DNA of 64,000 bases from a virus, in IMG/VR virus record IMGVR_UViG_3300034103_000398, positions 7,028-71,027 of that record, one strand, 5' to 3'. Below the pieces are notes generated by a model. The model saw nothing but the letters and a program-made list of their open reading frames with translations. It was not told where the DNA came from and did not search any database. Shown one piece after another: positions 8,483-25,009 of this stretch. Positions within the stretch are counted from its first letter, which is position 1. Every line of letters starts with the position of its first letter. A program made the translations under genes and the position numbers.

Positions 8483-9898
8483 TTAACATGCGTAACGATA
8501 GTTCATAATTGTCTTGAGCATGACGCCTTCTGGAGTGAACTCAGAAGGATCCGCACCTAGCAAACTTGCCATGATGCTTGGGCTAAAGCCAGAGACTAGA
8601 GCCGCACCAGACTTGTCTGACTTGACAGGACTGTTACCAGAACTGTTCAAGTTCCAGAACACTACGCTAGGCGCAGTGTAGCCGGCTTGTTCGTACTTGC
8701 GTTGGATCATTTCCATTGCAGAATCATCGTGGGTTACACATTGATTAAACTGCATGTCAGAAAGGATCAATAACATCTTAGGCATGTCACTTTCAGGAAC
8801 AGAGTTCTTGACTGCAACACTTAGGATCTTGTCCATAGCCTTGTGCAAGTTAGTGTCCATTGCCCACTTAGATTGAACCATTTGGTTGATCTTCTGAACG
8901 ATATCACCCTTTAGAGTAATCAGTTCAGGAGTACCACTGAAAGTCAAGAATGTGTCCTTGAACGCACCCCTGTTCTTGTCAGCTAGGTATAGACCAAGTG
9001 AAACAGAAACGTCCAAACATGTTACAGAACCAGTTCCGCCTGCTGGGCAAGTCATAGAACCAGATACGTCTACCAATGGTAGAATGTTTGCATCGTTCAT
9101 GTAGTTAGGCAATGCATCCCATTGTGCGGTTACGTGATCCAATTCGGTCTTACCCAAAGTAGAACGGCCGTACGCAGAGATTAGACCCTTCAAGACTTCA
9201 TGAGGGAACACTGCCGAAGCATTGACCTTCACAGTCTTGTCACCACTAACCAACTTAGCCACATATTCAGCGAATGTAGTAGAATGACGGTTGAACGCCT
9301 TCTTGTAGATTCGTGATGCCTGTGAAGGCACATGACTGAAGTTGATGTTATCCCAATCATTCGCACACATTTGTGTTTCAACAACCTTAGTCATTGCCAC
9401 AAGTTGCTTACGATATTGCTTAGGAGTCATTCCGAAGAATTCACGGATTTCACGTGCGACTTCACCCTTACGAGGAGTCCACTTAGCTGCCAAGCCATTC
9501 TTTTCACGAAGGGCGTTACCCAACATGGTGTAAGCCTTGGCCTTCATGTCTTGAGTCTTAAAGACAAACAAGTCATCGTAACGACCGATTTCTGGCACCT
9601 TTGTCATAAGACGAGTTGCCGATTCAGGATCGGTATTTTCCAAGTGAGTCAAAATGTCACGGAACAGTTGACGTTCACCTGCACCACCACGTACATCACG
9701 TGCCCACAATGCCACACGCAATGCTAGATCCTTGTTTTCGACCATAGCGGCAGTGAATTGAGGGATGATGTTCTTACCACGGCTTGCACCGATGTTGTAG
9801 AACAGATCAACCACTGAGTTAGCGGTTGACTTACGAGCCTTCATACCGTTTGTAGTACGGGCTTCTTGGTTTGCGACTGCGTTTACAAATGCGTTCAT
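8483..9898 (-). CDS. DUF2828-type TROVE/Ro60-like protein with C-terminal vWA domain
   Basis: ARDVRGGAGER, AAKWTPR, DVSGSM (MIDAS), ILSDMQF, VFWNL, VSGFSP motifs; ATG 9898 follows AAGGA RBS. Ro/TROVE relationship is from family knowledge, not computed. Confidence 0.75.
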   Translation of the reverse strand: MNAFVNAVANQEARTTNGMKARKSTANSVVDLFYNIGASRGKNIIPQFTAAMVENKDLALRVALWARDVRGGAGERQLFRDILTHLENTDPESATRLMTKVPEIGRYDDLFVFKTQDMKAKAYTMLGNALREKNGLAAKWTPRKGEVAREIREFFGMTPKQYRKQLVAMTKVVETQMCANDWDNINFSHVPSQASRIYKKAFNRHSTTFAEYVAKLVSGDKTVKVNASAVFPHEVLKGLISAYGRSTLGKTELDHVTAQWDALPNYMNDANILPLVDVSGSMTCPAGGTGSVTCLDVSVSLGLYLADKNRGAFKDTFLTFSGTPELITLKGDIVQKINQMVQSKWAMDTNLHKAMDKILSVAVKNSVPESDMPKMLLILSDMQFNQCVTHDDSAMEMIQRKYEQAGYTAPSVVFWNLNSSGNSPVKSDKSGAALVSGFSPSIMASLLGADPSEFTPEGVMLKTIMNYRYAC

Positions 9899-9913
9899 TT
9901 TCTTTTCCTTTGT

Positions 9914-9970
9914 CAGAATGTGTTTTGTTTTCAGATATTGGTTGAAATTTAAATTTGCTGTTAACATTCT
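9914..9970 (-). ncRNA. CAGCAA-stem RNA element 1 (leader of Ro-like gene)
   Basis: AGAATG-TTAACAGCAAA...CATTCTG, 3 nt upstream of the RBS. Confidence 0.7.
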
Positions 9971-9980
9971 ATGTCTCTAG

Positions 9981-10235
9981 CAGGATGAGCGTAACTGGTG
10001 TTTTTATTTTCTGGTCAGCCTTTCCCCTGTATATCGGTTCAGTTACCTTGACCCTATCAACGATTCACGTTGACTATCTAAACTTGTGTCTGCGTTAGAA
10101 ACATAGTATGTCTTTCCATGCTGTCGTCTATTCCTTCAATGTCTAGTTTCCTAGAACAGTATTTCTACTGTGTCCTGCAACCATCTTCTATAGCAGTTAG
10201 TTCAGATTTAATGTTTAATTTGCTGTAATCATCCT
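9981..10235 (-). ncRNA. CAGCAA-stem RNA element 2 (255 nt, multi-hairpin)
   Basis: AGGATGA-TTACAGCAAA...TCATCCTG; internal GAAA-tetraloop hairpins; no ORF. Confidence 0.75.
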
Positions 10236-16876: not shown

Positions 16877-16963
16877 TGGTGGAGACGACTGGAGTCGAAC
16901 CAGTAGTGCCTTTCGGGCGGCGGATTTACAGTCCACTGGGGTTACCAATTTTCCTACATCTCC
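16877..16963 (-). tRNA. tRNA-Tyr(GTA)
   Basis: loop CTGTAAA, variable arm, CCA. Confidence 0.92.
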
Positions 16964-17693: not shown

Positions 17694-17768
17694 ACCATAT
17701 AGAAACACACTAGGCTACTTACCGATTTATCTCGGAATTCTTTTTCGCAAAATGTGTTTTTATATGGT
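17694..17768 (-). ncRNA. long-stem-closed RNA (family B) overlapping tRNA-Lys CCA end
   Basis: ACCATATAAAAACACATT...AGTGTGTTTCTATATGGT. Confidence 0.5.
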
Positions 17769-17842
17769 AGGGGCACAGGGATTCGAACCCTGACCTGGCA
17801 GATTAAAAGTCTGCTGTGCTAAACCGTTAACACTATACCCCC
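17765..17842 (-). tRNA. tRNA-Lys(TTT)
   Basis: loop CTTTTAA, CCA. Confidence 0.9.
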
Positions 17843-18375: not shown

Positions 18376-18436
18376 CAGGATGCATTTTTACGTTTTCAAT
18401 TAAAAGTTGAGTGTATAAATTTGCTGTTAGCATCCT
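18376..18436 (-). ncRNA. CAGCAA-stem RNA carrying Lys(UUU) anticodon loop
   Basis: AGGATGC-TAACAGCAAA...TCAA-CTTTTAA-TTGA...GCATCCTG. Confidence 0.75.
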
Positions 18437-21442: not shown

Positions 21443-21527
21443 TGGTACTCCTAGTGAGATTCAAACTCGCACTAATAGGTCATAGTGTTCTCAACATTGC
21501 CGGTGCACTAATTATCTGGATCGGAGC
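21443..21527 (-). tRNA. degenerate/atypical tRNA-Leu(GAG)-like
   Basis: loop TTGAGAA, T-like arm, ACCA end; D arm poorly paired. Confidence 0.5.
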
Positions 21528-21535
21528 AATATTTT

Positions 21536-21613
21536 TGGTACTCCCTCTCGGAGTCGAACCGAAAACACTCTTCCTTTTGAGAGAAGCGACTTTGCCAATT
21601 CCACCACAAGGGC
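21536..21613 (-). tRNA. atypical tRNA-Leu(CAA), short variable region, weak acceptor
   Basis: loop CTCAAAA, CCA. Confidence 0.6.
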
Positions 21614-21620
21614 ATTATTA

Positions 21621-21708
21621 TGGAGGAAAGCCAGAGAATCGAACTCTAACCGTTTTCACGATCCTGCTGTTTTCGAGACAGCGGCCAGCCCAGCTGACAT
21701 AACCTTCC
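21621..21708 (-). tRNA. tRNA-Ser(CGA)
   Basis: loop CTCGAAA, long variable arm. Confidence 0.8.
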
Positions 21709-21717
21709 ATTGTAAAA

Positions 21718-21824
21718 CAGGATGCTGTAGTATCGCCGGGAATCGAACCCCTATTTCAACTACGGTGCCCAACTGCACGGCCTGCCAGATTGTTAGCGGC
21801 ATAGGTGTTTGCTGTAGTCATCCT
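21718..21824 (-). ncRNA. CAGCAA-stem RNA with D-like and T-arm hairpins
   Basis: AGGATG-ACTACAGCAAA...GTGC-AGTTGG-GCAC...GGG-TTCGATT-CCC...CATCCTG. Confidence 0.75.
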
Positions 21825-21828
21825 AAAC

Positions 21829-21918
21829 TGGCAGCGAGTGAGAGATTCGAACTCTCGTGCCCCTTTCGGGACCATCACCTTTCCAAGATGCGCCAATAGG
21901 CCACTCTGGCAACTCGCT
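21829..21918 (-). tRNA. tRNA-Ser(GGA)
   Basis: loop TTGGAAA, long variable arm. Confidence 0.85.
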
Positions 21919-21925
21919 ATATAAC

Positions 21926-22003
21926 TGGTACCCTAGGTCGGATTCGAACCGACACGATTCTCCTTTTGAGAGAGACACCTCATTCCAATTGGGTTACTAG
22001 GGC
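21926..22003 (-). tRNA. tRNA-Leu(CAA), short variable region
   Basis: loop CTCAAAA, CCA. Confidence 0.8.
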
Positions 22004-22010
22004 ATAAATT

Positions 22011-22085
22011 TGGTAGTCGATAGTGGTGTCGAACCACTGACCTCTTCGATGTCAACGAAGCGTTCTACCGCTGAACTAATCGACT
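22011..22085 (-). tRNA. tRNA-Val(GAC)
   Basis: loop TTGACAT. Confidence 0.9.
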
Positions 22086-22093
22086 ATATAAAA

Positions 22094-22209
22094 CAGGATA
22101 CTTTTTTCTAACGCTCTACCAAATGAGCTAATCAGGCATGAAGCCTAATGTTGGATTCGAACCAACTACCTTTCGATTTCAAGTCGATAAGATTTGCTGT
22201 TAGTATCCT
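22094..22209 (-). ncRNA. CAGCAA-stem RNA containing a circularly permuted tRNA (Ser UGA loop)
   Basis: order: anticodon arm, T arm, loop-closed acceptor, D arm, inside AGGATAC/GTATCCT stem. Confidence 0.85.
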
Positions 22210-22214
22210 AAAAC

Positions 22215-22290
22215 TGGTCTCCGTGATAGGTCTCGAACCTACGGCCTCAAGTTCCCCGAACTTGCGCTCTTCCAACTGAGCTACACAGAG
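22215..22290 (-). tRNA. tRNA-Pro(GGG), C33
   Basis: loop TCGGGGA. Confidence 0.8.
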
Positions 22291-22297
22291 ATAATTC

Positions 22298-22666
22298 TTA
22301 CAAAGAAGAAATACTCTTCCATTTATACTTTCTAGCGCAATGAATGCTATTATTCAGTGCGCTTGCACACGGAAACCTGTGACCTTTTCTAAAAGTCCAT
22401 TCGTTTATTTTGAATGACTTCAACACCTGATCACCGTTCCACCATCCACGTTCACACTTAATGTAACCTAGTTCTTCTAACTGGTTACGCAACTTTGTAA
22501 ACTCGTCATGGTCTTTGTTACTGATGCTGACACCCTTGTCATATCCCTTAAGAACTTTGATAAGGTCATCATGTGTAGGGTTGTTACGATCTTTGATAAA
22601 GTCGTGTTCAGTCCTAACAGTAACATCACAAATAAAACTTTCATCAATTGTGAATTGTTTCAACAT
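22298..22666 (-). CDS. hypothetical protein
   Basis: 122-aa ORF with AAGGA RBS. Confidence 0.7.
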   Translation of the reverse strand: MLKQFTIDESFICDVTVRTEHDFIKDRNNPTHDDLIKVLKGYDKGVSISNKDHDEFTKLRNQLEELGYIKCERGWWNGDQVLKSFKINEWTFRKGHRFPCASALNNSIHCARKYKWKSISSL

Positions 22667-22831
22667 TATAGTTCCTTATAGATTGGGAGCCTAACTATCT
22701 GACGTTACTCAGCCTTGCTAGATTGTCTCGTACACAAGAGTTTATGCTACCTATGTAATCATACTATAGTGTCACACACCAGCATAGTGTGCTAGATTAC
22801 TCGGGACTCATCGTGCCGTCTATCCCTTAAC

Positions 22832-22906
22832 TGGTACCCGGTGATGGTTACGATCCATCTACAGCTGCCTTATCAAGACAGTACCTCACCATTCGGTCTA
22901 CCGGGT
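22832..22906 (-). tRNA. tRNA-Ile(GAT), atypical T loop
   Basis: loop TTGATAA; T loop ATCGTAA. Confidence 0.75.
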
Positions 22907-22919
22907 ATAAAATTAAATT

Positions 22920-22993
22920 TGGTGCTCCTTGACAGAATCGAACTGCCGTATCCGCGTTACAAAGGCGGTGTAATACCATTATACGAAAAGAGC
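22920..22993 (-). tRNA. tRNA-Thr(TGT)
   Basis: loop TTTGTAA. Confidence 0.85.
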
Positions 22994-22997
22994 TAAT

Positions 22998-23123
22998 TGG
23001 TGGAGATGCCGGGATTCGAACCGCGGACAAGAACTTTTACAGAGTTAGAGCTATAGATTGCTGTGCGAATTCTTGTCAGAATTCGTTTTTTGCTATGCTA
23101 TGCTACCATTACATCACATCTCC
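22998..23123 (-). ncRNA. tRNA-Tyr-like RNA with CAGCAA stem inserted between D and anticodon arms
   Basis: GGAGATG/CATCTCC-ACCA acceptor, D arm, CGAATTCT-GACA-AGAATTCG-CACAGCAAT, AACT-CTGTAAA-AGTT, T arm. Confidence 0.8.
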
Positions 23124-23131
23124 AAAAACAA

Positions 23132-23192
23132 CAGGATGTATTTTTACGTTTTCAATTAAAAGTTGAGTGTATAAATTTGCTGTTAACATCCT
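23132..23192 (-). ncRNA. CAGCAA-stem RNA carrying Lys(UUU) anticodon loop (near-identical to 18376-18436)
   Basis: differs from the other copy by a compensatory C-G to T-A pair in the closing stem. Confidence 0.78.
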
Positions 23193-23197
23193 AAAAC

Positions 23198-23272
23198 TGG
23201 CGTACCCCCAAGGACTCGAACCCTGACCTAACGGATTTGGAATCCGCGATGCTGCCATTACACTAGAGATAC
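23198..23272 (-). tRNA. tRNA-Trp(CCA)
   Basis: loop TTCCAAA. Confidence 0.88.
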
Positions 23273-23280
23273 ATAAAATC

Positions 23281-23378
23281 GGCCCACTGTACGGGAATCG
23301 AACCCGCTTTGTCCATTGAACGGAATCGAACCGTCTCTTCGGGGTGCGCGCCAACCCGGGCCCCAAGCCTACAGTGGA
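23281..23378 (-). ncRNA. tRNA-like RNA with two T arms and no anticodon arm
   Basis: TCCACTGTA/TACAGTGGG stem enclosing ACGG-TTCGATT-CCGT and GCGGG-TTCGATT-CCCGT. Confidence 0.65.
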
Positions 23379-23384
23379 TTTGTT

Positions 23385-23460
23385 TGGTGCCTGAGACTGG
23401 ACTCGAACCAGTATCGCTCACTGTGTAAAAGTGACGTATGACCTCTCTACGCACTCAGGC
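23385..23460 (-). tRNA. tRNA-Val(TAC)
   Basis: loop TTTACAC. Confidence 0.88.
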
Positions 23461-23468
23461 AAATTGTT

Positions 23469-23545
23469 TGGAACATGGAGTGAGATTCGAACTCACGAAC
23501 AACTGGTTTGCAATCAGTCACATTAGGCCACTCTGTCATCCATGC
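23469..23545 (-). tRNA. tRNA-Cys(GCA)
   Basis: loop TTGCAAA. Confidence 0.88.
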
Positions 23546-23553
23546 ATAAAATT

Positions 23554-23627
23554 TGGTGCTCAAACTAAGAATCGAACTTAGATTTCATTCGTACCAAGAA
23601 TGTGTTCTACCATTGAACTATAAGAGC
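23554..23627 (-). tRNA. tRNA-Thr(GGT)
   Basis: loop TTGGTAC. Confidence 0.85.
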
Positions 23628-23640
23628 AAATTTACTTAGG

Positions 23641-23711
23641 GGTGACCAACGGGGCTCGAACCCGTACTACCAGAGTCACAGTCTAGGTTGCTACCATTAC
23701 AACATGGTCAC
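23641..23711 (-). tRNA. tRNA-His(GTG) without encoded CCA or G-1
   Basis: loop CTGTGAC; 3' end CCCTA; flanks form an extra 10-bp helix. Confidence 0.8.
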
Positions 23712-23738
23712 ACCTAAGTAAACTTAGGAAAAATATAA

Positions 23739-23796
23739 CAGGATCGTTTTTGTCGCTAGACATCCAAAGTTAGCTTTTGTTTGCTGAACCGATCCT
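23739..23796 (-). ncRNA. CAGCAA-stem RNA (58 nt)
   Basis: AGGATCG-GTTCAGCAAA...GCTAAC-TTTGGAT-GTCTAGC...CGATCCTG. Confidence 0.72.
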
Positions 23797-23801
23797 AAAA
23801 C

Positions 23802-23879
23802 TGGCGCCCACGAAAGGATTCGAACCTCTGACCCCTTGTTTCGTAGACAAGTGCTCTAATCCAACTGAGCTACGCGGGC
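23802..23879 (-). tRNA. tRNA-Arg(ACG)
   Basis: loop CTACGAA. Confidence 0.92.
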
Positions 23880-23887
23880 ATAAATTT

Positions 23888-23962
23888 TGGTACTCAGTAC
23901 GGGAATCGAACCCGTCTTTACAACTTGAAAGGCTGTCGTCCTTACCGATAGACGAACTGAGT
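23888..23962 (-). tRNA. tRNA-Glu(TTC)
   Basis: loop CTTTCAA. Confidence 0.88.
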
Positions 23963-23971
23963 ATGTGTTCT

Positions 23972-24061
23972 TTAGTAAAGAGACTCCTTGTACACATTGC
24001 ATAAATGTGTCCATGCTTCAATCTCTTGTTTATGTTTTTCTACTGATTGATTCCAACTCAT
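23972..24061 (-). CDS. 29-aa small ORF MSWNQSVEKHKQEIEAWTHLCNVYKESLY
   Basis: AAGGAG RBS; 3' end complementary to own RBS. Confidence 0.5.
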   Translation of the reverse strand: MSWNQSVEKHKQEIEAWTHLCNVYKESLY

Positions 24062-24146
24062 GTGAGTCTCCTTTAAATATGGCGCCGATTTTTGTCATTT
24101 TAACTCAGGCTAACGTACACTCTCTGAGATTAGTTGCAACACAACT

Positions 24147-24219
24147 TGGTAGCCATGGCCAGTTTCGAAATGTCGACCTATCGCTTAAAGCGATTGCTCT
24201 TCCTCTGAGCTACACGGCT
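24147..24219 (-). pseudogene. tRNA-like gene with 5-nt anticodon loop (likely decayed tRNA-Ile)
   Basis: ATCGC-TTTAA-GCGAT; weak T stem; ACCA end. Confidence 0.6.
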
Positions 24220-24227
24220 GTATTGTT

Positions 24228-24302
24228 TGGTGGATGTAAGTAGATTTGAACTACTGACCTGCTCCGTATGAAGGAGATGCACTACCGCTGTGCTATACAT
24301 CC
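24228..24302 (-). tRNA. tRNA with CAT anticodon on a Val-like arm (second copy)
   Basis: D and anticodon arms identical to 16006-16080. Confidence 0.8.
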
Positions 24303-24307
24303 AAAAA

Positions 24308-25009
24308 TTACCAAAAGATGTTTATCTCATTTTCTTTTATGTTCAAATGCATTTGAATTGTAATTCTACATTCATTCTCACTTAAATTAAAAGGTTCAAT
24401 AGAATGTGTAATATCACTTCCCCACTGTGCTAATATTCCAGGCTTATATTCAAGTTTTACATATTCATCGGGTAATACATTTTTGTTAGAAACGGATTCT
24501 TGTGTTGTATATAACAAAGCCCCACCTGAACTAGGAATAGAAATTGGTATAATAACTGATACTATTTCCCCAACATCCGTAATGTTTTGTAAGAAAGAAA
24601 ATTTATCTCTGTGAAAATTATAATAGCCATATGAAGAAGGTTGATTTTCTCTTAATACATATACATGAAATCCAGGATAGTGAGTTTTATCTAAATAAAC
24701 TACCGGTTTATTATATACCGCTTCTATTTTTGTTTTAATCTTATCGTAGTATGTATTAAAGTGCTCTTTCATGATGGGTCTGAATTTCTTCACATTTATC
24801 ATATATAAAATCTGACTACTAGCGTACATACCAGGTGGCAACATTTGTGTTGTGACTGAATTAATACCTAAATCTTTTTCTTTGATATTAGTATTTGTAT
24901 ATTTCCATAGTTTTTTTAAATCAAATACTTTATTCTTTATATCAAGAAGTTCATCTTGAGTAAAAAAGTTATGTTGAATTATTCCTGGTACAATTTTATT
25001 GTATGTCAT
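24308..25009 (-). CDS. 2OG-Fe(II) oxygenase-like protein
   Basis: FHRD, GGAL, HSIEP, RITIQ motifs. Confidence 0.6.
   Translation of the reverse strand: MTYNKIVPGIIQHNFFTQDELLDIKNKVFDLKKLWKYTNTNIKEKDLGINSVTTQMLPPGMYASSQILYMINVKKFRPIMKEHFNTYYDKIKTKIEAVYNKPVVYLDKTHYPGFHVYVLRENQPSSYGYYNFHRDKFSFLQNITDVGEIVSVIIPISIPSSGGALLYTTQESVSNKNVLPDEYVKLEYKPGILAQWGSDITHSIEPFNLSENECRITIQMHLNIKENEINIFW

What the first reader, a model, noticed from the sequence alone, without database searches (positions are those of the whole stretch)
22094..23123. Two RNAs that are circular permutations of one design: tRNA inside the CAGCAA stem, and CAGCAA stem inside a tRNA
22094-22209 reads: stem 5' strand and CAGCAA; anticodon arm (TCGA-CTTGAAA-TCGA); AAGGTA; T arm (GTTGG-TTCGAAT-CCAAC); acceptor closed by a loop (ATTAGGC-TTCAT-GCCTGAT); D arm (GCTC-ATTTGGTA-GAGC); stem 3' strand. 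22998-23123 has the same circular order opened at the acceptor: GGAGATG; D arm; A-rich linker; stem 3' strand CGAATTCT-GACA then stem 5' strand AGAATTCG-CACAGCAA; anticodon arm (AACT-CTGTAAA-AGTT); T arm; CATCTCC-ACCA. Its acceptor and loop match the phage's own tRNA-Tyr (16877-16963). In both, the putative protein-binding stem is grafted at the D-arm/anticodon-arm junction. As I recall, described YrlA RNAs lack an anticodon arm, whereas these keep one, and the second could be aminoacylated (inference).
Basis: partly seen in the sequence, partly recalled or inferred. Interest (0 to 1): 0.88.

Follow-up and report, generated by a model that had tools for sequence, protein, structure and literature searches.

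The report
Phage tRNA look-alikes sharing one handle
A large lake phage encodes two conserved small RNAs that combine tRNA parts with one shared "handle", once around a closed tRNA mimic and once as an extra arm inside an open tRNA-like RNA, and they are probably partners of the phage's Ro60-shaped protein.

Summary
Both RNAs exist as described, on the minus strand of a 49-tRNA island.

**22095-22209.** This is a YrlA-type closed tRNA mimic: T arm, loop-closed 7-bp acceptor, D arm. It sits inside an AGGAT/ATCCT + CAGCAA "handle". It scores below threshold on Rfam YrlA (29.4 bits against 69). In 18 relatives, 10 of 24 pairs covary.

**22998-23123.** This is a cloverleaf with an ACCA end. The same handle, capped by a loop, sits between the D and anticodon arms. 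I found 22 distinct copies. In 19 aligned, 13 of 31 pairs covary, including the handle hairpin and the anticodon stem.

**Handle polarity is the same in both forms.** The order is an A-rich strand, ATYCT-G, AGRAT, 1-4 nt, then CNGCAA. The "circular permutation" therefore holds as architecture, but the two tRNA bodies are not one sequence.

- The extra hairpin of the first RNA has a 7-nt anticodon-like loop in only 3 of 23 relatives.
- The second RNA's anticodon is GUA in 16 of 19 and GUG in 3 of 19. This argues against faithful tyrosine decoding.
- One close relative has the handle replaced by an endonuclease-like ORF.

**Likely partner.** A DUF2828 protein at 8483-9967 folds like Ro60. Binding, RNA ends and charging are untested.

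This scan had already noted the handle family, and a tRNA-shaped handle RNA, on other DNA.

The parts
22202..22209 (-). EL1 handle, 5' strand (AGGATACT)
   Evidence: Pairs with 22095-22102. Closing helix 96.5% paired in 18 relatives; 2 of 8 pairs change on both sides.
22194..22199 (-). EL1 CAGCAA motif, 2 nt after the helix
   Evidence: Invariant in alignment A3.
22173..22187 (-). EL1 extra hairpin TCGA-CTTGAAA-TCGA (extendable to 22168-22192)
   Evidence: A hairpin is present in 21 of 23 relatives; its loop is 7 nt in only 3.
22150..22166 (-). EL1 T arm
   Evidence: 3 of 5 pairs covary. Aligned to the Rfam YrlA and tRNA models.
22131..22149 (-). EL1 acceptor-like stem closed by a loop (7 bp)
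   Evidence: 5 of 7 pairs covary.
22113..22128 (-). EL1 D arm (GCTC-ATTTGGTA-GAGC)
   Evidence: Invariant in 18 relatives. Matches the YrlA consensus D arm.
22095..22112 (-). EL1 A-rich strand and handle 3' strand (AGTATCCT)
23117..23123 (-). EL2 acceptor 5' strand (GGAGATG)
   Evidence: Pairs with 23002-23008. 5 of 7 pairs covary.
23100..23114 (-). EL2 D arm (ATGT-AATGGTA-GCAT)
   Evidence: Invariant in 19 relatives. RNAalifold offers another pairing of the same invariant letters.
23086..23099 (-). EL2 invariant A-rich linker (AGCATAGCAAAAAA)
   Evidence: Almost every column is invariant in 19 relatives.
23066..23085 (-). EL2 capped handle hairpin (CGAATTCT-GACA-AGAATTCG)
   Evidence: 4 of 8 pairs covary. 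The distal ATYCT/AGRAT positions are fixed, and G is the first loop base in all 19.
23058..23063 (-). EL2 CAGCAA motif, 2 nt after the hairpin
   Evidence: Reads C-N-G-C-A in all 19; the sixth base is A in 17.
23032..23046 (-). EL2 anticodon-like arm (AACT-CTGTAAA-AGTT; GUA)
   Evidence: 2 of 4 pairs covary (AU to CG in 3 sequences). Loop is GUA in 16 of 19 and GUG in 3 of 19.
23009..23026 (-). EL2 T arm with one bulged pyrimidine
   Evidence: 2 of 5 pairs covary, 100% paired. Also predicted by RNAalifold.
22998..23008 (-). EL2 acceptor 3' strand, discriminator A and CCA
8483..9967 (-). DUF2828 + DUF7788 protein with a Ro60 fold, the presumed partner of the handle
   Evidence: Pfam. AlphaFold2 pLDDT 86.8. 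The top 13 Foldseek PDB hits are all Ro60/TROVE chains over the full length.
16877..16963 (-). Canonical phage tRNA-Tyr(GUA) with a long variable arm, used for comparison
23133..23192 (-). Short open-form handle RNA directly upstream of EL2, near-identical to 18377-18436

Best explanation
EL1 and EL2 are two members of one phage-encoded family of small stable RNAs. Each joins a conserved handle to tRNA-mimicking cargo.

The handle is a 7-9 bp helix ending in AGGAT/ATCCT-G. An A-rich strand lies on one side and CNGCAA lies 1-4 nt beyond the helix on the other.

- EL1 carries the handle at its paired 5' and 3' ends, around a YrlA-type closed tRNA mimic (T arm, closed acceptor, D arm).
- EL2 is a cloverleaf with a free ACCA end. 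The same handle, capped by a loop, forms a fifth arm between the D stem and the anticodon stem. EL2 shows a GUR anticodon loop on a tRNA-Tyr-like body.

Inferred: the handle is bound by the phage's Ro60-fold DUF2828 protein, as Y RNA stems are bound by Ro60. The tRNA-like part would then bring or hold tRNA-recognising factors (modification, repair or processing enzymes, or host tRNA-cutting defence nucleases) at that particle during infection.

Shown here: the sequences, their conservation, the covariation, the shared handle and the protein's fold. Inferred: binding, the mature RNA ends, and the function.
For: Structure and conservation:
- EL1 class: 23 distinct copies. In 18 aligned, 10 of 24 pairs change on both sides.
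- EL2 class: 22 distinct copies from 28 loci. In 19 aligned, 13 of 31 pairs change on both sides. RNAalifold agrees for four helices.

Same handle in both forms:
- Fixed ATYCT/AGRAT positions and CNGCA.
- G follows ATCCT in 205 of 209 open-form elements and is the first loop base in 31 of 32 capped forms.
- Neither feature was required by the search patterns used.

Other topologies in relatives:
- handle in place of the acceptor (L193:2775-2875)
- handle in an RNA with only an acceptor and a T arm (L204, L234, L245)
- handle in a minihelix (L232)

YrlA likeness: Rfam RF02553 scores 29.4 bits on EL1 and 40.1 and 31.2 bits on two relatives.

Protein:
- DUF2828/DUF7788 folds as Ro60. The 13 best PDB matches are all Ro60/TROVE chains, E 2.3e-8 to 1.5e-5, with about 510-560 aligned columns.
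- A handle element ends within 150 nt upstream of this gene in 59 of 71 related loci.
- Handle elements lie 158 to 1 on the gene's strand.

Precedent in passages read:
- Phage Ro60 binds phage Y-like RNAs (PMC12135203).
- YrlA is a closed, permuted tRNA mimic.

RNA-library contigs cover EL1 at 100% identity and cover EL2 of this phage and of a relative with the insert in place.
Against: - No binding, expression level or RNA end was measured. The contigs from RNA libraries could contain DNA and cannot show ends.
- The 59-of-71 linkage comes from related phages (72-99% protein identity). It is conserved synteny, not independent association.
- EL1 and EL2 lie 12-14 kb from the protein gene.
- Pfam TROVE (PF05731) finds nothing in the 71-kb record, and no PDB chain is found by sequence. 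The Ro60 link rests on a predicted fold.
- EL1 is far below the Rfam YrlA threshold, and the Ro60-binding part of that model did not align.
- In the close relative L001 the EL2 handle is replaced by a 179-aa ORF while the flanks stay 100% identical. The handle can therefore be lost, at least for a time.
- A rival pairing of the handle's 3' strand with the anticodon arm's 3' strand is possible in 90.4% of cells.
- The anticodon hairpin is weak in energy terms.
Confidence: 0.55

Rival explanations
1. EL2 is a working, aminoacylated tRNA, charged by TyrRS and used in translation. Its extra arm replaces the long variable arm of bacterial tRNA-Tyr, emerging from position 26 next to where that arm normally starts. 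Any protein binding would be secondary.
For: - 7-bp acceptor with G1-C72, discriminator A and encoded CCA in all 19 copies.
- The first four acceptor pairs, GGAG/CUCC, are typical of the co-resident tRNA-Tyr genes.
- Anticodon loop CUGUAAA is identical to that of the phage tRNA-Tyr.
- U8, A14, G18G19, a T loop UUCGAAU and a 5-nt variable loop are all present (read).
- After in-silico removal of the insert, ARAGORN of 19 as tRNA, 14 of them Tyr.
- The gene is spaced like the neighbouring tRNA genes.
Against: - The anticodon is GUG (His) in 3 of 19 copies on the same Tyr-like body. L126 and L237 differ at two positions, one of them position 36.
- A second subfamily with the same build has unrelated anticodon-like loops (UGU, GCU, GUU, UAU, GAU, GCA).
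- The anticodon stem has only 4 bp, and the T stem has a bulge.
- About 53 nt are inserted, and the linker and motif are invariant and shared with non-tRNA handle RNAs.
- Canonical tRNA-Tyr genes sit in the same phages.
- ARAGORN and the Rfam tRNA model do not call any intact copy.
Confidence: 0.15
2. The tRNA-like RNAs are stand-alone decoys, or nuclease-resistant substitutes, for host defence enzymes that cut or deplete tRNAs at the anticodon loop. The handle only stabilises or processes them, without a Ro60-like partner.
For: - G34 and U35 are invariant while position 36 varies (GUA or GUG) in EL2.
- From recall, G34-U35 is the part of the loop read by enzymes acting on GUN anticodons, such as queuine insertion and colicin E5-type cleavage.
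- Short handle RNAs in the window show a CUUUUAA loop, like the tRNA-Lys anticodon loop.
- The whole set lies in a 49-tRNA island.
- From recall, phage tRNA sets are thought to offset tRNA-targeting defences.
Against: - Nothing here shows any nuclease or any resistance.
- EL1 relatives mostly carry 4-6-nt loops that mimic no anticodon.
- The handle is tightly linked to the Ro60-fold gene in related phages. This reading does not need that linkage.
Confidence: 0.12
3. The handle is a processing signal that is cut out and the ends are ligated. EL2 would then mature to a normal-sized tRNA, and EL1 would circularise, as in the split or permuted tRNA genes of archaea and red algae (recalled).
For: - In-silico removal of the insert leaves a sequence that ARAGORN calls tRNA in 16 of 19 cases.
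- EL1 has the gene order of a permuted tRNA.
- A kinase (AAA_33) and a phosphatase lie near the Ro60-fold gene.
Against: - No joint across the insert appears in four RNA-library runs, and three contigs carry it in place. Contigs do drop rare forms.
- No intron family or bulge-helix-bulge-type match in Rfam at E up to 10.
- The linker and motif are invariant, which is unexpected for discarded sequence.
- EL1 relatives would give tRNAs with 4-6-nt 'anticodon' loops.
- In Dictyostelium Class I RNAs the look-alike stem and motif are part of the mature RNA (PMC7919456, passages).
Confidence: 0.06
4. The EL2 hairpin is an intrinsic terminator for the opposite (+) strand, or the inverted repeats act at the DNA level. 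The tRNA likeness would be a decayed tRNA gene.
For: On the + strand, 23065-23086 followed by a T run matches the terminator pattern.
Against: - That scan found 3 terminator-like sites against 2.2 expected from shuffles.
- No + strand gene runs into the site.
- The whole cloverleaf covaries and keeps CCA.
- The one-sided CNGCAA motif and the 158-to-1 strand bias point to a feature of the RNA.
Confidence: 0.02

Closest known systems
YrlA, the bacterial and phage Y RNA that mimics tRNA (Rfam RF02553; Chen et al. 2014, PMC4201824; Wang et al. 2018 preprint, 10.1101/312249)
   Same: EL1 has the same order of parts: T arm, loop-closed acceptor, D arm, all enclosed by a stem formed from the 5' and 3' ends. 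Its D and T arms align to the model. A Ro60-fold protein is encoded in the same phage.
   Different: - The score is 29.4 bits against a threshold of 69.
- The Ro60-binding stem of the model is not matched; it is replaced by the AGGAT/ATCCT + CAGCAA handle.
- A local hairpin stands where YrlA has the long 'anticodon stem' that leads into the Ro60 site.
- The protein is DUF2828/DUF7788, not Pfam TROVE.
- EL2 has what YrlA is stated to lack: a free CCA end and an anticodon loop.
Deinococcus radiodurans Yrn1 (Chen et al. 2014, passages)
   Same: It is a Y RNA in which the T and D arms have the other orientation and a possible 'anticodon arm' lies between them. More than one tRNA-like topology within Y RNAs therefore has a precedent.
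   Different: Yrn1 has no open acceptor with CCA and a different Ro60-binding stem. Its D arm is doubtful according to the authors.
Thermus phage phiLo Ro60 with Yrl1 and Yrl2 (PMC12135203, passages; PDB 9L5Y and 9KOP among the fold matches)
   Same: A phage-encoded Ro60-fold protein, with phage-encoded RNAs that have a stem formed by the 5' and 3' ends, a bulge and a short conserved motif.
   Different: The motif there is CGAA, and the RNAs lie just upstream of the gene. No tRNA-like cargo or CCA end is mentioned in the passages I read.
Class I RNAs of dictyostelid amoebae (Kjellin et al. 2021, PMC7919456, passages)
   Same: - A short stem joins the 5' and 3' ends.
- An 11-nt motif lies next to the 5' strand, with T, C, C, A, A fixed at positions 3, 6, 9, 10 and 11. 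This fits ACTAACAGCAA here.
- The RNAs start with (A)AG and end with CUGU, which fits AGGAT...ATCCTGT here.
   Different: These are eukaryotic RNAs of 42-65 nt with no tRNA-like cargo described. I compared only with the paper's wording, not its logos or sequences. Homology is not shown.
tmRNA and viral tRNA-like structures
   Same: An acceptor and T arm with a free CCA end joined to a non-tRNA domain. Rfam tmRNA gives a weak match to EL2 (18 bits).
   Different: The match is below threshold (47 bits). There is no tag reading frame and no ARAGORN tmRNA call. The third acceptor pair is A-U or G-C, not G-U. A full D arm and an anticodon arm are present.

Membership tests
YrlA (Rfam RF02553) | Score at or above the curated gathering threshold (69 bits) | tested here: not met
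   EL1 scores 29.4 bits over model positions 24-84 only. Relatives score 40.1 bits (L084) and 31.2 bits (L008). The L001 and L240 copies are not listed at E up to 0.01.
YrlA (Rfam RF02553) | tRNA-like domain in the order T arm, loop-closed acceptor stem, D arm | tested here: met
   Met for EL1: (T arm 3 of 5 and acceptor 5 of 7 pairs covary). EL2 does not have this order, because its acceptor is open.
YrlA (Rfam RF02553) | Stem equivalent to the anticodon stem runs on into the Ro60-binding stem; no anticodon loop, no free CCA | tested here: not met
   EL1 has a local hairpin instead. EL2 has an anticodon-like loop and ACCA.
YrlA (Rfam RF02553) | Partner is a Ro60 (TROVE) protein encoded nearby, and the RNA is bound by it | tested here: inconclusive
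   No PF05731 match in the 71-kb record. A DUF2828/DUF7788 protein with a Ro60 fold lies 12-14 kb away. Binding cannot be tested with these tools.
tRNA (Rfam RF00005 / ARAGORN) | Recognised as tRNA by the standard detectors | tested here: not met
   EL2 is not called in the window. None of 25 copies in 24 loci is called, and none of 19 intact copies even with the intron option. After in-silico removal of the insert, 16 of 19 are called.
tRNA (Rfam RF00005 / ARAGORN) | Cloverleaf with 7-bp acceptor, D, anticodon and T arms, and a CCA end | tested here: met
   Met for EL2 with three departures: about 53 nt inserted between the D and anticodon stems, a 4-bp anticodon stem, and a bulge in the T stem.
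tRNA (Rfam RF00005 / ARAGORN) | Aminoacylation and use in decoding | not testable with these tools
   Indirect evidence only. A73, CCA and GUA fit Tyr. GUG in 3 of 19 copies on the same body argues against faithful decoding.
tmRNA (Rfam RF00023) | Gathering score, tag reading frame, G3-U70 alanine identity | tested here: not met
   18 bits against 47. No ARAGORN tmRNA call. Pair 3-70 is A-U in 13 and G-C in 6 of 19.
CAGCAA-handle RNAs of DUF2828 phages (family seen in this scan; not in Rfam 15) | Helix ending in AGGAT/ATCCT followed by G; CNGCAA 1-4 nt after the AGGAT strand; A-rich opposite strand | tested here: met
   EL1 has the open form. EL2 has the capped form, with ATYCT-G and AGRAT fixed in 19 of 19. 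Statistics on 209 open and 32 capped forms are. The A-rich strand is less general: 5 or more A in 77 of 209 open forms and 24 of 32 capped forms.
tRNA intron (self-splicing or enzyme-cut) | Insert removed from the mature RNA; intron family or splice motif present | tested here: inconclusive
   No intron family at E up to 10. No joints, and three contigs from RNA libraries hold the insert. These are contigs, which drop rare forms.

The most novel reading that the evidence does not exclude
EL2 is a chargeable tRNA-like RNA that carries a docking site for the Ro60-shaped protein. It would be an open, CCA-ended Y RNA. It could be aminoacylated, or bound by TyrRS, EF-Tu, the CCA-adding enzyme or queuine-inserting enzymes, while tethered to an RNA-surveillance ring. 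This would physically link a phage Ro60-like particle to the host's tRNA or translation machinery. The closed (EL1) and open (EL2) forms would be two states of one adaptor design.
Probability: 0.15. Interest if true: 0.9.

Novelty: new variant of a known kind. Interest (0 to 1): 0.7.

Why it matters
The effector that the tRNA-like half of YrlA recruits is still unknown. The DUF2828 family is very large, with 6121 cluster representatives at E up to 0.001, and has no assigned function.

This phage group offers a natural series in which one protein-binding handle is joined to tRNA parts in several topologies:
- closed mimic
- whole cloverleaf with a CCA end
- acceptor and T arm only
- anticodon stem-loop only

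Such a series says which tRNA features matter to the particle. It also gives ready-made constructs for binding, charging and nuclease assays.

An RNA with both a Y-type handle and a free CCA end was not described in any paper I found. If it is charged or bound by translation factors, it would tie Ro60-type RNA surveillance to tRNA biology more directly than any known Y RNA.

Tried and rejected
- **Whole-window Rfam at gathering thresholds:** only tRNAs.
- **megablast of 21500-24500 against named phages:** one 70-nt tRNA-Trp match, so there is no cultured relative to lean on.
- **Sequence search of the DUF2828 protein against PDB:** nothing at E up to 1.
- **Literature search for DUF2828:** five papers, none on RNA by their titles and abstract openings in the search listing.
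- **Candidate 3-bp helix AGC (30-32) with GCT (77-79) in EL2:** 89.5% paired but never varies, so it is undecided. RNAalifold instead pairs G31 and C32 with the GC of CAGCAA; those columns are also invariant.
- **Alternative helix between the handle's 3' strand and the anticodon arm's 3' strand:** 90.4% pairable, one pair with changes on both sides, weakened in the CCCT/AGGG group. It is neither adopted nor excluded.
- **Permuted-tRNA-gene reading of EL1:** rejected, because most relatives have 4-6-nt loops.
- **Promoter and terminator scan:** counts no higher than in shuffles.
- **RNA-library runs X15-X18:** only contigs were available. Parts without cover, including ORF 22298-22666, say nothing. 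Depths cannot rank genes, and DNA carry-over cannot be excluded. The habitat labels (lake water) come partly from possible source samples.
- **Rows left out of counts:** L072, L244:7513-7631 and L187 from alignment A2 (a divergent subfamily); L008, L084, L090, L240 and L222 from A3 (too divergent for MAFFT).
- **Supplements are closed.** Supplemental Fig. S1 and Table S2 of Chen et al. 2014, which list phage YrlA RNAs and their drawn structures, might show YrlA variants with an extra hairpin. I could not check this.
- **Recalled, from no call:** T4 'species 1 and 2' stable RNAs, permuted tRNA genes of red algae, colicin E5, PrrC, and retron or PARIS targeting of tRNAs.
Full report
**Setting.** The window is a 64-kb part of a 71-kb viral contig, judged about 20% complete. 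ARAGORN finds 49 tRNA genes, all on the minus strand between 11353 and 25855. Both RNAs of the finding lie in gaps of this array on the same strand. Neither ARAGORN nor Rfam at curated thresholds calls them. DNA holders of the stretch are lake-water metagenomes, some of which may be the source sample. No cultured phage is close.

EL1 (22095-22209, 115 nt) reads in order:
- AGGATACT, AA, CAGCAA
- a hairpin TCGA-CTTGAAA-TCGA, extendable to 9 bp
- T arm
- a 7-bp acceptor-like stem closed by TTCAT
- D arm
- an A-rich run, then AGTATCCT

EL2 (22998-23123, 126 nt) reads in order:
- GGAGATG
- D arm ATGT-AATGGTA-GCAT
- AGCATAGCAAAAAA
- hairpin CGAATTCT-GACA-AGAATTCG
- CA-CAGCAA, then 11 nt
- AACT-CTGTAAA-AGTT, then CTTGT
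- a T arm with one bulged C
- CATCTCC-ACCA

The phage's canonical tRNA-Tyr (16877-16963) has the same acceptor 5' strand and the same anticodon loop. Its 3' strand differs by one base.

**EL1 is a real, conserved structure.**
- Its single-sequence fold gives exactly the five helices, with z -4.55.
- Rfam's YrlA model aligns its T arm, closed acceptor and D arm at 29.4 bits. This is far below the 69-bit threshold, and the Ro60-binding part of the model does not align.
- I found 23 distinct relatives in related viral contigs.
- In a MAFFT alignment of 18 of them, 98.6% of cells pair and 10 of 24 pairs change on both sides: T arm 3 of 5, closed acceptor 5 of 7, closing helix 2 of 8. Slid controls give at most 3. 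Five divergent copies were left out.
- The D stem never varies.
- Two divergent relatives score 40.1 and 31.2 bits on the full YrlA model.

**The extra hairpin of EL1.**
- A hairpin of at least 4 bp stands between CAGCAA and the T arm in 21 of 23 relatives.
- There is one clear compensatory change: CTATC/GATAG to CTAAC/GTTAG.
- Its loop is 7 nt only in the window, L053 and L232. It is 4-6 nt in 17 relatives (typically CTATC-AAAC-GATAG) and 8 nt in L084.
- It therefore occupies the topological place of the anticodon arm but is not generally an anticodon arm.
- Two relatives (L090, L240) carry a further hairpin after the D arm.

**EL2 is a real, conserved structure.**
- Two pattern scans of viral contigs gave 28 loci with 22 distinct copies.
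- In 19 aligned copies, 95.9% of cells pair and 13 of 31 pairs change on both sides: acceptor 5 of 7, handle hairpin 4 of 8, anticodon stem 2 of 4, T stem 2 of 5. Slid controls give at most 3. Three copies of a divergent subfamily were left out.
- RNAalifold, given only the alignment, predicts the acceptor, the handle hairpin, the anticodon hairpin and the bulged T arm.
- The linker AGCATAGCAAAAA is almost invariant.

Weak points of the EL2 fold:
- The window's own minimum-free-energy fold pairs the handle strand elsewhere.
- The 4-bp anticodon hairpin is in the minimum-free-energy fold of only 4 of 19 copies. The handle hairpin is in 16 of 19 and the full acceptor in 18 of 19.
- A rival 6-bp helix between the handle's 3' strand and the anticodon arm's 3' strand is possible in 90.4% of cells.

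**Same handle, same polarity.**
- In EL2 the five distal pairs read ATYCT/AGRAT. The base after ATYCT is G in all 19. C-N-G-C-A follows AGRAT after a few nt.
- Among 209 distinct open-form elements in the fetched loci, the helix is 7 bp in 149 and CNGCAA starts 3 nt after it in 148. The base after ATCCT is G in 205.
- Among 32 capped forms with a T loop downstream, the loop starts with G in 31.
- The search patterns did not require these G positions.
- The idea holds as architecture only. The two tRNA bodies differ in their D arm, acceptor and T stem.

**More topologies than two**. Relatives carry the handle:
- in place of the acceptor, on a D arm + anticodon arm (CAU) + T arm body (L193:2775-2875)
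- around a T arm + acceptor hairpin + D arm with the EL2-type D arm (L026, L053, L085, L086, L143)
- capped, inside a second cloverleaf subfamily whose anticodon-like loops differ from copy to copy (L006, L008, L069, L071, L072, L075, L091, L244, L187)
- capped, inside RNAs with only an acceptor and a T arm and a GCCA end (L204, L234, L245)
- capped, inside a bare minihelix (L232)

**Is EL2 a tRNA?**

For:
- G1-C72, A73 and encoded CCA are present in all copies.
- GGAG/CUCC is shared with the co-resident tRNA-Tyr genes. The whole 5' strand is identical in 3 of 15 loci that hold both.
- The standard tertiary-contact letters are present.
- ARAGORN of 19 as tRNA (14 Tyr, 2 His) once alignment columns 26-80 are removed in silico. 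It of 19 intact.

Against:
- The anticodon is GUG in 3 of 19 copies on the same Tyr-like body. L126 and L237 differ at two positions, one of them position 36.
- The sister subfamily has unrelated loops.
- The anticodon stem has 4 bp, the long variable arm of bacterial tRNA-Tyr is missing, and canonical tRNA-Tyr genes are present as well.
- G34 and U35 are invariant while position 36 is free. This looks like recognition of a loop shape rather than decoding. That is inference.

**Is the insert an intron?**
- No intron family matches.
- In four RNA-library runs no joint was seen. A 271-nt contig (1 difference) runs from the downstream tRNAs into the insert. Two contigs of a relative (17 differences) cover all of EL2 with the insert in place. 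A 151-nt contig covers EL1 at 100% identity.
- These are contigs. They do not prove transcription, cannot show ends, and drop rare forms.
- In L001 the neighbouring ORF is 97% identical to the window's. There, EL2 positions 26-68 are replaced by about 550 nt holding a 179-aa ORF with a weak GIY-YIG match (17 bits, below threshold). The flanks are 100% identical. The handle can therefore be displaced by a mobile gene, at least for a time.

**Likely partner.**
- The ORF at 8483-9967 matches DUF2828 and DUF7788, not TROVE.
- With an alignment of 45 relatives, AlphaFold2 gives pLDDT 86.8 and pTM 0.86.
- The 13 best Foldseek matches in the PDB are all Ro60 chains aligned over about 510-560 columns: Xenopus, human, Deinococcus and Thermus phage phiLo.
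- In 59 of 71 related loci a handle element ends within 150 nt, mostly 7-18 nt, upstream of this gene. Handle elements lie 158 to 1 on its strand. These phages are related, so this is conserved synteny.
- A dual-specificity phosphatase, a P-loop kinase (AAA_33) and an HD-domain protein lie just downstream. This fits RNA end-healing only loosely.

**Literature.**
- Chen et al. 2014 (passages) report YrlA-like RNAs near Ro60 in over 250 bacteria and phages. They note that Yrn1 has the other orientation, with a possible anticodon arm.
- The Wang et al. [quoted passage not shown]
- The phiLo paper (passages) shows a phage Ro60 binding two phage Y-like RNAs.
- Iyer et al. 2021 (passages) mention TROVE proteins with a tRNA-like partner in a few jumbo phages.
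- Kjellin et al. 2021 (passages) describe Class I RNAs whose worded features fit the handle here: a 6-bp end stem; an 11-nt motif with T3, C6, C9, A10 and A11; a start of AAG and an end of CUGU.
- I found no paper on DUF2828 and RNA, or on a Y-type RNA with a CCA end.

**Earlier notes of this scan.** The handle family with DUF2828 has been noted many times on other genomes. A 'tRNA-shaped handle RNA' sharing words with EL2 was followed up on another genome. That note says the anticodon arm is replaced by the handle. In the copies studied here the anticodon-like arm is kept beside the handle.

**Verdict.** EL1 is a new variant of the YrlA kind. EL2 is an open, CCA-ended tRNA-like RNA carrying the same handle, a form not described in the papers I could search. 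Partnership with the Ro60-fold protein and any role in tRNA surveillance or counter-defence are inferences that await binding, end-mapping and charging experiments.

Noticed in passing
L001:2695-3244: In a close relative the EL2 handle is replaced by a 179-aa ORF with a weak GIY-YIG endonuclease match, while the tRNA-like flanks stay 100% identical to the window. This looks like a homing-type gene landing inside an RNA gene.
   Followed up: partly
window 24147-24219 (-): ARAGORN calls a tRNA with anticodon TTA, which would read the stop codon UAA. Relatives carry tRNAs with anticodon CTA, which would read UAG (L204, L230, L234, L245), and L228 also has a TTA one. These could be suppressor tRNAs or signs of stop-codon reassignment in this phage group.
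   Followed up: no
window 18377-18436 and 23133-23192 (-): Two near-identical 60-nt open-form handle RNAs differ by a compensatory change in the closing helix (GC/GC against GT/AC). Their cargo is a 4-bp hairpin with the loop CTTTTAA, like a tRNA-Lys(UUU) anticodon loop. Relatives show other 7-nt loops at this place.
   Followed up: partly
window 23066-23085 with 23026-23031 (-): The 3' strand of the EL2 handle (AGRATT) can also pair with the 3' strand of the anticodon arm plus the variable loop (AGTTCT). This holds in 90.4% of cells across 19 relatives, with one C-G change on both sides in two copies where the handle pair is broken. It may be an alternative conformer.
   Followed up: partly
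window 23283-23378 (-): A GC-rich stretch between tRNA-Trp and tRNA-Val gives only a weak tRNA-Sec match (21.2 bits, E 0.59) and no ARAGORN call. It may be another unusual tRNA-like RNA.
   Followed up: no
window 9982-10235 (-) and relatives: A 254-nt handle RNA with a large structured cargo ends a few nt upstream of the Ro60-fold gene. It is conserved at that place in most related loci. A second element of about 160 nt precedes it in many of them.
   Followed up: partly
window 8483-9967 (-): Most of the 150 best relatives of the Ro60-fold protein align only from residue 24 of this ORF, and residues 1-24 have low model confidence. The true start may be the later methionine.
   Followed up: no
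window 17768-17842 (-): Rfam calls a tRNA here (61.4 bits) that ARAGORN does not list, so the tRNA count of the island is at least 50.
   Followed up: no
L126:4722-4815, L193:3537-3628, L204:6252-6346 and others: Relatives carry unusually long (91-95 nt) tRNA-Ile(TAT) calls. They may hold an extra arm or insert.
   Followed up: no
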